From: Escherichia coli
GTDB lineage: Bacteria > Pseudomonadota > Gammaproteobacteria > Enterobacterales > Enterobacteriaceae
Assembly (NCBI RefSeq): GCF_003018115.1
Contig: NZ_CP027457.1
DNA: 64,000 nt
Direction: 5' to 3' (one strand)
Positions 21,901 to 24,900 of the stretch are shown one piece after another. The position numbers are program-made. How positions within the stretch are numbered: position 1 is the first letter of the stretch; each line of letters starts with the position of its first letter.

Positions 21901-24900
21901 GGCATCTTTTTTCAGTGCAGCGGTGAGTTTGTCGGCATCCAGTTCCAGTTTGCCATCGCTGGGATCGGTCGTGATACCAATCTGCGCCAACGTTTTATAG
22001 TTGGAAGAACTAACGGTATTACTCAGCATCGACTTCAACTGCGTCTGAATCGTCCGCAGCGTGGAGTCGCCGAGCAGTGCGCCATTGCTAGAGCTCTGGC
22101 TATCAGCTCCCGCATCTACGGCGGTGTATTTGGTCAGGCTGCTGAAGGTATCTATTAGCGAGTTATAGGCATTCACCCAGTCTTTAATCGCCGTTTGCGC
22201 TTTGGAGGTGTCCTGAGTGATGGTCAGCGTCTGGTTGCCCGTGGTGACATCGTTCAGGTTCAGGGTGATGTTTTCCAGCGCGTCGCTGATAGTGTTGCTG
22301 CTGTTCTCGATGGCGACGTTGTTGACTGTCAGCTGCGCATTCTGGGCGGCGACCGAGACCTCCATGCCGTTGCTGCTGGCACTGGCGTCATAGCCCATAA
22401 AACTTTGTAGCGCATCATCACCGCTGACCGAGAGTGTCATCGCATTATCAAGGCCGGTGTCATTTGATGTGACTGACAGACGATATTCACCGTTACCCAC
22501 GTTAATGATGCTCGCACTTACGCCCGCTTTTGCGTTGTTGATGGCATCACGGATCCCGCTTAACGACGAGTTAGCCGCGCTGATATCAATGGTAATCGGA
22601 TCTTTGTCGCCGCCTTGTTGAATGGTGAGTTTACTGTCGCTGGTGGCGATCGCCGTTTTCGTATCATCTCTGGTGGTGCGCGTGGTCAGGGTTTGCGCCT
22701 GCGCCAGATGGGTGACGCTGATGGTGTATTTCCCGGCGATGGCGTTACCCGCGGTGGTGGCACTGAACGCGGTGGTGCTGCTGGTAGTGCTGGTGGCGGA
22801 AAAAAGATCGGCTTTAGACAATGCAGTATTGGCGGTCTGGAAAGTCGTCAACGCGCTTTTCAGCGTACCGTAGGCGCTAAGTTTAGCGGTAAACGACGAT
22901 TGCTGATTTGAAATAGGGGTTAGCGTCGCTTTTTGCGCGGCGGTGAGGCTATCAAGGATTGAACTTAAATCCAGGCCTGACCCGACTCCCAGCGATGAAA
23001 TACTTGCCATGCGATTTCCTTTTATCTTTCGACACGTAAAACGAATACCGGGGTTATCGGCCTGAATTGCGCAAAGTTTACGTTTAATTGTTTTTTTTAA
23101 TAGCGGGAATAAGGGGCAGAGAAAAGAGTATTTCGGCGACTAACAAAAAATGGTTGTTTGTGAAAAAAATTCTAAAGGTTGTTTTACGACAGACGATAAC
23201 AGGGTTGACGGCGATTGAGCCGACGGGTGGAAACCCAATACGTAATCAACGACTTGCAATATAGGATAACGAATCATGGCACAAGTCATTAATACCAACA
23301 GCCTCTCGCTGATCACTCAAAATAATATCAACAAGAACCAGTCTGCGCTGTCGAGTTCTATCGAGCGTCTGTCTTCTGGCTTGCGTATCAACAGCGCGAA
23401 GGATGACGCCGCGGGTCAGGCGATTGCTAACCGTTTTACTTCTAACATTAAAGGCCTGACTCAGGCTGCACGTAACGCCAACGACGGTATTTCTGTTGCG
23501 CAGACCACCGAAGGCGCGCTGTCCGAAATCAACAACAACTTACAGCGTATCCGTGAACTGACGGTTCAGGCTTCTACCGGGACTAACTCTGATTCGGATC
23601 TGGACTCCATTCAGGACGAAATCAAATCCCGTCTGGACGAAATTGACCGCGTATCCGGTCAAACCCAGTTCAACGGTGTGAACGTACTGGCGAAAGACGG
23701 TTCGATGAAAATTCAGGTTGGTGCGAATGACGGCCAGACTATCACTATTGATCTGAAGAAAATTGACTCTGATACTCTGGGTTTGAGTGGATTTAATGTG
23801 AATGGCAAAGGGGCTGTGGCTAACGCAAAAGCGACCGAAGCAGATTTAACGGGGGCTGGTTTCTCTCAAGGAGCGGTGGATACAAACGGAAATAGTACTT
23901 GGACAAAATCAACCACCACCAATTACTCAGCTGCAACAACTGCTGACTTGTTATCGACCATTAAGGATGGCTCTACTGTTACATATGCAGGGACAGACAC
24001 CGGATTGGGGGTCGCAGCAGCAGGAAATTATACTTATGATGCGAACAGTAAATCTTATTCCTTCAATGCCAATGGTCTGACGGGCGCAAATACCGCAACT
24101 GCACTCAAAGGTTACTTGGGGACAGGTGCTAACACCGCTAAAATTTCTATCGGTGGTACAGAGCAGGAAGTGAATATTGCCAAAGATGGCACTATTACAG
24201 ATACGAATGGTGATGCGCTCTATCTGGATATTACCGGCAACCTGACTAAGAACTATGCGGGTTCACCACCTGCAGCAACGCTGGATAACGTATTAGCTTC
24301 CGCAACTGTAAATGCCACTATCAAGTTTGATAGCGGTATGACGGTTGATTATACTGCAGGTACTGGCGCGAATATTACAGGTGCATCCATTTCTGCAGAT
24401 GACATGGCCGCAAAACTGAGCGGAAAGGCGTACACTGTTGCCAATGGTGCTGAGTCTTATGACGTTGCTGCAGTTACGGGGGCTGTAACAACTACAGCAG
24501 GTAATTCACCTGTGTATGCCGATGCAGACGGTAAATTAACGACGAGTGCCAGTAATACGGTTACTCAGACTTATCACGAGTTTGCTAATGGTAACATTTA
24601 TGATGACAAAGGCTCGTCACTGTATAAAGCTGCAGATGGCTCTCTGACTTCTGAAGCTAAAGGGAAATCTGAAGCAACCGCCGATCCCCTGAAAGCTCTG
24701 GACGAAGCGATCAGCTCCATCGACAAATTCCGCTCCTCCCTCGGTGCGGTGCAGAACCGTCTGGATTCCGCAGTCACCAACCTGAACAACACCACTACCA
24801 ACCTGTCCGAAGCGCAGTCCCGTATTCAGGACGCCGACTATGCGACCGAAGTGTCCAATATGTCGAAAGCGCAGATCATTCAGCAGGCCGGTAACTCCGT

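What the first reader, a model, noticed from the sequence alone, without database searches (positions are those of the whole stretch)
23054..23199. Divergent sigma-28 promoter pair in the fliD-fliC intergenic region
The fliD side has a perfect TAAA-N15-GCCGATAA on the minus strand, while the fliC side has TAAA-N15-GACGATAA. The two class-3 promoters are about 95 bp apart and back to back. This gives direct sequence support for FliA-dependent expression of both the filament cap and flagellin operons in this strain.
Basis: partly seen in the sequence, partly recalled or inferred. Interest (0 to 1): 0.2.

Follow-up and report, generated by a model that had tools for sequence, protein, structure and literature searches.

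The report
Known divergent fliD/fliC sigma-28 promoters
The two back-to-back flagellar sigma-factor (FliA) promoters between the filament-cap gene fliD and the flagellin gene fliC of E. coli are really there, but they are long known and ordinary.

Summary
TAAA-N15-GCCGATAA lies at 23054-23080 on the minus strand, upstream of fliD. TAAA-N15-GACGATAA lies at 23173-23199 on the plus strand, upstream of fliC. The two -35 boxes are 92 bp apart.

These are the published FliA (sigma-28) promoters of E. coli fliDST and fliC. Both are FliA ChIP-seq peaks in K-12, and the window's FliA protein is identical to K-12's. No mapped sigma-28 start for fliD could be obtained.

Both box pairs are invariant between two E. 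coli allele classes of this spacer that are only about 70% identical. They recur at fixed distances in 25 of 27 divergent fliD-flagellin loci from other genera.

Two caveats apply:
- fliDST is dual class 2 and class 3. In K-12, deleting fliA barely lowers its RNA, so FlhDC is the main driver.
- By position-weight matrix alone the fliC site is weak (13.5 bits). Its context, conservation and the experiments carry the case.

This strain's perfect fliD -10 is the common E. coli allele; K-12's ACCGATAA is the minority. Already known, low interest.

The parts
23054..23061 (-). fliD (fliDST) sigma-28 -10 element, GCCGATAA, a perfect match to consensus
   Evidence: Invariant in both E. coli allele classes and in 8 of 8 genera aligned. 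K-12 has ACCGATAA here.
23073..23080 (-). fliD sigma-28 -35 element, TAAACTTT (core TAAA at 23077-23080)
   Evidence: The block AAAGTTTA is invariant across genera, while the 11 bases between the two 8-mers diverge and the spacing is kept.
23046..23047 (-). Predicted class 3 transcription start of fliDST (7-8 nt after the -10 box, about 36-37 nt before the fliD ATG); not mapped
   Evidence: Inference from the spacing seen at fliC. The K-12 FliA ChIP-seq peak centre for fliDST (2001856 in NC_000913.2) corresponds to window position about 23050, downstream of the motif in the fliD direction. The distance from the -10 box to the ATG is 35-47 nt in 24 of the 27 loci analysed.
23173..23180 (+). fliC sigma-28 -35 element, TAAAGGTT (core TAAA at 23173-23176), preceded by an A-rich tract at 23163-23169
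   Evidence: GAAAAAAATTCTAAAGGTTGT is invariant between the E. coli allele classes, and TCTAAAG is invariant across genera.
23192..23199 (+). fliC sigma-28 -10 element, GACGATAA (one departure from GCCGATAA)
   Evidence: Identical to the K-12 ChIP-seq motif for fliC, the strongest FliA peak (FAT 110). GACGATAA is kept in Escherichia, Enterobacter, Erwinia and one Pantoea; most other genera have GCCGATA[AC].
23207..23207 (+). fliC transcription start (G), 8 nt after the last base of the -10 box, giving a 69-nt leader
   Evidence: SMRT-Cappable-seq lists the K-12 start of the b1923 operon at 2003675, reverse strand (PMC6131387 supplementary file 4). This was converted through the identical alignment. 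The leader begins GACGG in most Enterobacterales sampled.
23209..23236 (+). Two tandem hairpins at the 5' end of the fliC mRNA (23209-23222 and 23225-23236)
   Evidence: Predicted by folding. Both hairpins recur in other genera with different stem sequences (read directly from the sequences). RNAalifold recovers only the second one. Their function is not tested.
23089..23102 (-). Candidate FlhDC-dependent (class 2, sigma-70) start of fliDST at 23089, with a -10-like TATTAA at 23097-23102
   Evidence: Kim et al. 2012 list a start at 2001817 (+) in NC_000913.2, 79 nt before the fliD ATG, with a low score of 3 (PMC3415461 supplementary file 2). The YATTAW block is partly conserved. Assigning it to class 2 is my inference.
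23126..23143 (.). Conserved block GAGTATTTCGGCGACTAA between the two promoters; candidate part of the FlhD4C2 site for fliD
   Evidence: GTATTTC and CTA(A) are invariant across the 8 sequences aligned. FlhDC occupancy at the fliDST promoter was shown by ChIP-qPCR in K-12. I could not establish a match to an FlhDC consensus.
21604..23010 (-). fliD, filament capping protein (468 aa)
   Evidence: NCBIfam NF005955 scores 684.5 bits against a cut-off of 387. The RefSeq annotation of a 99.6% identical genome agrees.
23276..24955 (+). fliC, flagellin (559 aa, H41-type allele)
   Evidence: NCBIfam NF005953 scores 744.9 bits against a cut-off of 619. The variable region is 99.9% identical to O169:H41 strains.
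25275..25994 (+). fliA, the sigma-28 factor that reads both promoters
   Evidence: 239 of 239 residues identical to K-12 FliA. NCBIfam NF005413 scores 363.5 bits.

Best explanation
The 265-bp spacer between fliD and fliC carries the two well-known, divergently oriented FliA (sigma-28) promoters of E. coli.

RNA polymerase carrying FliA recognises TAAAGGTT-N11-GACGATAA and starts fliC mRNA at G23207. This is a pure class 3 promoter, and fliC expression depends almost entirely on FliA.

On the other strand, the same holoenzyme recognises TAAACTTT-N11-GCCGATAA and is predicted to start fliDST mRNA at about 23046-23047. fliDST also receives FlhD4C2-dependent sigma-70 (class 2) input from the sequence between the two sigma-28 promoters. 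Its sigma-28 promoter is therefore a second, late input rather than the sole driver.

Shown here or in the cited data: the sequence, orientation, conservation, FliA occupancy and the fliC start. Inferred: the fliD class 3 start, and the position of the class 2 promoter and FlhDC site.
For: - Exact motifs and coordinates.
- Enrichment over chance in the window and in the spacer.
- The fliC motif is identical, and the fliD motif identical but for one base, to the FliA ChIP-seq motifs of fliC (FAT 110) and fliDST (FAT 43). The two peaks are resolved separately, and each peak centre is displaced downstream of its motif in the direction of its own gene.
- In K-12, fliC RNA falls from 2319 to 11 without FliA. 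fliA overexpression restores fliD expression in a strain lacking flhD.
- The K-12 fliC start at 2003675 corresponds to window 23207, 8 nt after the -10 box.
- The window's FliA is 100% identical to K-12's.
- In about 1315 E. coli genomes with a second spacer allele that is about 70% identical, both -35 and -10 boxes and the start-proximal bases are unchanged. The spacers between the boxes diverge at constant length, and a 19-bp indel lies between the promoters.
- In 25 of 27 divergent fliD-flagellin loci (Citrobacter, Enterobacter, Erwinia, Pantoea, Serratia, Rahnella, Hafnia, Edwardsiella, Photorhabdus, Proteus, Providencia, Brenneria, Gilliamella and others), both strands carry a sigma-28 motif with shuffle p of 0.01 or less, at conserved distances from the start codons.
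Against: - No mapped sigma-28 start for fliD was available. The only fliD start I found (Kim 2012) lies upstream of the sigma-28 -35 box and probably belongs to the class 2 promoter.
- In K-12, deleting fliA does not significantly lower fliDST RNA (633 to 356), so the physiological weight of the fliD sigma-28 promoter is small under those conditions.
- The fliC site scores only 13.5 bits, within the window-wide null range, so sequence alone is weak evidence for that side.
- All experimental evidence comes from K-12, not from this strain.
Confidence: 0.95

Rival explanations
1. The fliD-side motif binds FliA holoenzyme but contributes little. fliDST is effectively a class 2 (FlhDC and sigma-70) operon, and the sigma-28 site matters only in special conditions such as filament repair or swarming.
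For: In K-12, fliDST RNA is 633 in wild type, 356 without fliA (not significant) and 3 without flhD or flhC. FlhDC occupancy was shown by ChIP-qPCR. A start site 79 nt before the fliD ATG, upstream of the sigma-28 boxes, is on record.
Against: The fliD sigma-28 motif is the best conserved element of the whole spacer across genera, scoring 16-24 bits in 25 of the 27 loci analysed, which argues for selection on its function. fliA overexpression restores fliD expression without FlhDC. K-12 carries the weaker ACCGATAA allele (17.5 against 20.6 bits), so the K-12 measurement may understate the promoter in this strain.
Confidence: 0.35
2. The fliC-side match is a chance occurrence, and fliC is transcribed from another promoter.
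For: The matrix score of 13.5 bits lies inside the null range for a 64-kb window, and the site departs from consensus at the second base of the -10 box.
Against: The mapped start lies 8 nt downstream. It is the strongest FliA ChIP-seq peak in the genome, with a 200-fold dependence on FliA. The boxes are invariant between E. coli allele classes that are 70% identical. Orthologous motifs lie 64-99 nt before the flagellin ATG in 26 of the 27 loci analysed. No sigma-70-like promoter was found in the region.
Confidence: 0.01

Closest known systems
E. coli K-12 fliC promoter (FliA-dependent class 3 promoter; Fitzgerald et al. 2014, PMC4183435)
   Same: The 28-nt motif TAAAGGTTGTTTTACGACAGACGATAAC is identical, as is the leader. 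The whole stretch from 23162 to the ATG equals K-12.
   Different: There are two single-base differences 13 and 19 bp upstream of the -35 box: 23154 is T where K-12 has C, and 23160 is G where K-12 has T. The gene downstream is an H41-type flagellin rather than K-12's.
E. coli K-12 fliDST promoter region (dual class 2 and class 3; Fitzgerald et al. 2014; FlhDC site predicted by Stafford et al. 2005, as cited there)
   Same: The position, orientation, -35 box, spacer and flanks are the same, and so is the intervening sequence that is bound by FlhDC in K-12.
   Different: The first base of the -10 box is G here (GCCGATAA, full consensus) and A in K-12 (ACCGATAA). The G form is the common one: 2552 genomes carry the window's 61-mer against 360 with the K-12 61-mer, and the sampled members of the second allele class also have G.
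[quoted passage not shown] 2010, cited in PMC4183435 but not readable here)
   Same: The architecture is the same: divergent fliD and flagellin genes, each with a sigma-28 promoter, and fliD under dual control.
   Different: This was not compared at the sequence level, because no Salmonella locus was among those fetched. Citrobacter, the closest relative sampled, has GCCGATAC on the flagellin side.

Membership tests
FliA (sigma-28) dependent flagellar class 3 promoter | -35 box TAAA(G/C)TTT and -10 box GCCGATAA, with 15 nt between TAAA and the -10 8-mer | tested here: met
   The fliD side matches 12 of 12 core bases and the fliC side 11 of 12, with exact spacing. Matrix scores are 20.6 and 13.5 bits. 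Shuffle p within the spacer is below 0.0005 and 0.0035.
FliA (sigma-28) dependent flagellar class 3 promoter | Located upstream of, and oriented towards, a late flagellar gene | tested here: met
   The -10 box ends 43 nt before the fliD ATG and 76 nt before the fliC ATG. Gene identities were confirmed with NCBIfam.
FliA (sigma-28) dependent flagellar class 3 promoter | Transcription start about 7-10 nt downstream of the -10 box | tested here: inconclusive
   fliC is met: the published K-12 start at 2003675 corresponds to window 23207, 8 nt after the box, on identical sequence. For fliD no sigma-28 start data could be obtained. The only recorded start (window 23089) lies upstream of the motif.
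FliA (sigma-28) dependent flagellar class 3 promoter | Occupancy by FliA holoenzyme in vivo | not testable with these tools
   Published K-12 ChIP-seq shows peaks at both motifs (FAT 110 and 43), each offset downstream of its motif. I transferred this by sequence identity and by the 100% identical FliA.
FliA (sigma-28) dependent flagellar class 3 promoter | Expression of the downstream gene depends on FliA | not testable with these tools
   Published K-12 RNA-seq gives fliC 2319 to 11 (dependent) and fliDST 633 to 356 (not significant). fliD expression is restored by fliA overexpression in a strain lacking flhD.
FliA (sigma-28) dependent flagellar class 3 promoter | Boxes conserved in orthologous regions while the surrounding sequence diverges | tested here: met
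   The boxes are invariant between two E. coli allele classes about 70% identical and across 8 aligned sequences. 25 of 27 loci from other genera have significant motifs on both strands.
FlhD4C2-dependent class 2 flagellar promoter (for fliDST only) | An FlhD4C2 binding site upstream of a sigma-70 promoter with a weak -35 box; FlhDC occupancy and dependence | tested here: inconclusive
   Occupancy (ChIP-qPCR) and dependence (633 to 3) are published for K-12. A candidate start lies at 23089 with a TATTAA -10 box, and there are conserved blocks at 23097-23112 and 23126-23143. I could not show a convincing match to an FlhDC box by comparison with the other class 2 regions of the window.

The most novel reading that the evidence does not exclude
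Most natural E. coli, including this strain, carry the full-consensus GCCGATAA at the fliD class 3 promoter, whereas K-12 carries the minority ACCGATAA allele (about 3 bits weaker). The published conclusion that FliA contributes little to fliDST expression could therefore be partly specific to K-12. In wild strains the class 3 input to the filament cap operon may be substantially larger.
Probability: 0.25. Interest if true: 0.2.

Novelty: already known. Interest (0 to 1): 0.07.

Why it matters
It matters little beyond annotation. The result confirms that this strain, which has an H41-type flagellin, keeps the canonical late-flagellar promoter architecture, an intact fliA and intact flhDC. Its flagellin and cap genes should therefore be regulated as in the model strain.

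The cross-genus footprint made here is a clean illustration that the divergent sigma-28 promoter pair is conserved across many genera of Enterobacterales. It also flags a minor point: K-12's fliD -10 box is the atypical allele.

Tried and rejected
- **Mapped sigma-28 start for fliD.** I looked in several sources without success. Kundu 1997, Stafford 2005, Wozniak 2010 and Thomason 2015 are not held. Conway 2014 has no supplements held. The Cappable-seq supplements had no entry near the site. The stored part of the SMRT-Cappable-seq table lists fliC but not fliD. Cho 2014 gives only expression values. Kim 2012 gives a low-score start at 23089, upstream of the sigma-28 boxes, and an odd low-score 'fliC' start inside fliD; neither is a sigma-28 start.
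- **FlhDC box.** I tried to define it by comparing the fliD upstream region with the ChIP-seq peak regions of flhB, yecR, fliA, fliE/F and fliL in the window. I saw only a loose shared TCTTTTC-type stretch at inconsistent distances, and left this unresolved.
- **Sigma-70 scan of the spacer.** It found nothing.
- **Hairpin loop GGAA at 23229-23232 as a CsrA-type site.** I considered and dropped this, because the loop sequence is not conserved in other genera.
- **Other papers.** A phrase search for 'fliD promoter' found no paper in the library. The paper on sigma-28-dependent small RNAs does not mention fliD.

Full report
**What is in the sequence**

The window is an E. coli chromosome segment. 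It covers the flagellar regions from fliR through fliE, then fliD, fliC, fliA and flhDC, to the tar and flhBAE end, in the reverse orientation of K-12.

fliD lies at 21604-23010 on the minus strand, fliC at 23276-24955 on the plus strand and fliA at 25275-25994 on the plus strand. All three were confirmed with NCBIfam models above their curated cut-offs.

In the 265-bp spacer, the minus strand reads TAAACTTTGCGCAATTCAGGCCGATAA at 23054-23080. The plus strand reads TAAAGGTTGTTTTACGACAGACGATAA at 23173-23199. The -35 boxes are 92 bp apart and face outward, that is, back to back.

**Is it more than chance?**

With at most one mismatch, TAAA-N15-GCCGATAA occurs 7 times in the window against 0.34 expected. 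At least five of the seven are the known FliA promoters of fliL, fliD, fliC, motA and tar, and one more is a published weak FliA site inside otsA.

I built a position-weight matrix from 45 published FliA sites that lie outside this window.
- The fliD site scores 20.6 bits. That is rank 3 of about 128,000 positions and above every one of 100 shuffled windows.
- The fliC site scores only 13.5 bits (rank 8), which is within the null range for 64 kb.
- Restricted to the spacer and the correct strand, the fliC score is reached in 0.35% of shuffles and the fliD score in none of 2000.

Sequence alone is therefore strong for fliD and only moderate for fliC.

**Experimental evidence, transferred from K-12**

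The spacer differs from K-12 MG1655 at three bases, and the window's FliA is 239/239 identical to K-12's.

Fitzgerald et al. 2014 (PMC4183435, Table 2) list FliA ChIP-seq peaks with exactly these motifs.
- fliC: FAT 110, the strongest in the genome. RNA falls from 2319 to 11 without fliA.
- fliDST: FAT 43. RNA falls from 633 to 356, not significant.

The two peaks are resolved separately. Each peak centre is displaced downstream of its motif in the direction of its own gene. The authors show this displacement is typical of holoenzyme at a promoter.

SMRT-Cappable-seq (PMC6131387, supplementary file 4) gives the fliC operon start at 2003675 on the reverse strand. That corresponds to window G23207, 8 nt after the last base of GACGATAA.

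For fliD I found no sigma-28 start data. The only recorded start is from Kim et al. 2012. It lies 79 nt before the ATG (window 23089), upstream of the sigma-28 -35 box, behind a TATTAA hexamer.

**fliDST is under dual control**

The same paper shows FlhDC occupancy at the fliDST promoter by ChIP-qPCR. It also shows near-total loss of fliDST RNA without flhD or flhC, little effect of deleting fliA, and restoration of fliD expression by fliA overexpression in a strain lacking flhD.

The fliD sigma-28 promoter is therefore functional but is a second input beside a class 2 promoter. I infer that the start at 23089, and the conserved blocks at 23097-23112 and 23126-23143 between the two sigma-28 promoters, belong to that class 2 promoter and its FlhDC site. 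I could not demonstrate an FlhDC box, and a simple sigma-70 scan finds nothing.

**Conservation within E. coli**

- 3187 of 5426 complete genomes have this spacer at 95% identity or more.
- About 1315 genomes, including ST131 with H4 flagellin, carry a second allele class only about 70% identical.
- In the alignment of the two classes, both -10 boxes, both -35 boxes and the start-proximal bases are invariant.
- The sequence between each -35 and -10 box diverges while its length is kept.
- A 19-bp indel (window 23143-23161) changes the distance between the two promoters. That distance is therefore not constrained.

**Conservation across genera**

I scanned one genome per species for the conserved flagellin start (MAQVINTN codons). 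I kept loci with a divergent fliD upstream, which gave 27 usable loci. In 25 of them both strands carry a sigma-28 motif with shuffle p of 0.01 or less.

- On the fliD side the motif is almost always TAAACTTT-N11-GCCGATAAC, 35-47 nt before the ATG.
- On the flagellin side it is TAAAG(G/T)TT-N11-G(C/A)CGATA(A/C), mostly 69-95 nt before the ATG.
- The two exceptions have FliD proteins only 31-32% identical to the window's FliD, so they may belong to a different flagellar gene set.

**Small strain-level points**

The 'perfect' fliD -10 box of this strain is the common E. coli state. The window's 61-mer occurs in 2552 genomes, against 360 for the K-12 61-mer with ACCGATAA. The K-12 form scores 17.5 bits against 20.6.

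The A at the second base of the fliC -10 box is fixed in Escherichia, Enterobacter and Erwinia. Changing it to C would add about 4 bits. Even so, fliC is the strongest FliA site in vivo, so the matrix does not capture promoter strength.

**Verdict**

The feature is textbook biology and already known, so interest is low.

Noticed in passing
window 23207-23236 (+): The fliC mRNA begins with two tandem hairpins (23209-23222 and 23225-23236). Comparable hairpins sit at the predicted 5' end of flagellin leaders in most Enterobacterales sampled, with different stem sequences (CGGC/GCCG, ACGGUG/CACCGU, GGGU/ACCC, GGGC/GCCC). This suggests a conserved structural element of the leader whose role is untested.
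   Followed up: partly
window 23143-23161; L003-L005: About 1315 E. coli genomes (for example ST131 with H4 flagellin) carry a second allele class of the fliD-fliC spacer, about 70% identical and with a 19-bp deletion between the promoters. The fliD and fliC ends differ as well.
   Followed up: partly
window 23061 (K-12: L001 position 2822): K-12 has A rather than G at the first base of the fliD -10 box. The K-12 61-mer is found in 360 genomes, against 2552 for the window's form.
   Followed up: yes
window 23154 and 23160: There are two single-base differences from K-12 just upstream of the fliC -35 box. The T at 23154 is absent from most close relatives: the best 501-bp matches are 99.6% identical, and only strain AR_0077 was seen with a 100% identical spacer. 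It makes AATGGTTGTTT more like the -35 stretch AAAGGTTGTTT 25 bp downstream.
   Followed up: partly
window 23795-24676 (fliC variable region): The flagellin is an H41-type allele, 99.9% identical to O169:H41 strains. Only 11 of 5426 complete genomes carry it.
   Followed up: partly
window 12244-16378: A segment of about 4.1 kb between fliE and yedK has no counterpart in K-12, which has yedL, yedN and intG there. In related genomes it is annotated as an OmpC-like porin, ybcM, ybcL and emrE, a gene set that I recall from the K-12 DLP12 cryptic prophage and that suggests a prophage remnant.
   Followed up: partly
window 47787-47794: The IS1H element that sits upstream of flhD in K-12 MG1655 is absent here, and flhD and flhC are intact.
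   Followed up: partly
window 53473-53567: The tar promoter TAAAGTTTCCCCCTTCCTTGCCGATAAC (53540-53567, +) is the best sigma-28 match in the window at 26.4 bits. The Rfam family C0465 RNA (53473-53550, minus strand, 111.6 bits) overlaps its -35 end in antisense.
   Followed up: no
window 45721-45748 (-), 25223-25250 (+), 48954-48981 (+), 5217-5244 (-): Other sigma-28 motifs in the window correspond to published FliA sites: one inside otsA (weak, FAT 2), the fliA promoter, the motA promoter inside flhC, and the fliL promoter. Further hits of 12-15 bits (17438 +, 3344 -, 26304 -, which is antisense in fliZ) are within the null range.
   Followed up: partly
L006 (E. coli 23CRST049) 1400-1629: A second flagellin gene next to an IS66-family element carries a copy of the fliC sigma-28 promoter and leader, starting about 60 bp upstream of the -35 box. 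The promoter evidently travels with mobile flagellin genes.
   Followed up: partly
L129 (E. coli 2015C-3121) about 1788-2500: An IS1A element is inserted in the fliD-fliC spacer at the position equivalent to window 23073/23074, between the -35 and -10 boxes of the fliD sigma-28 promoter.
   Followed up: partly
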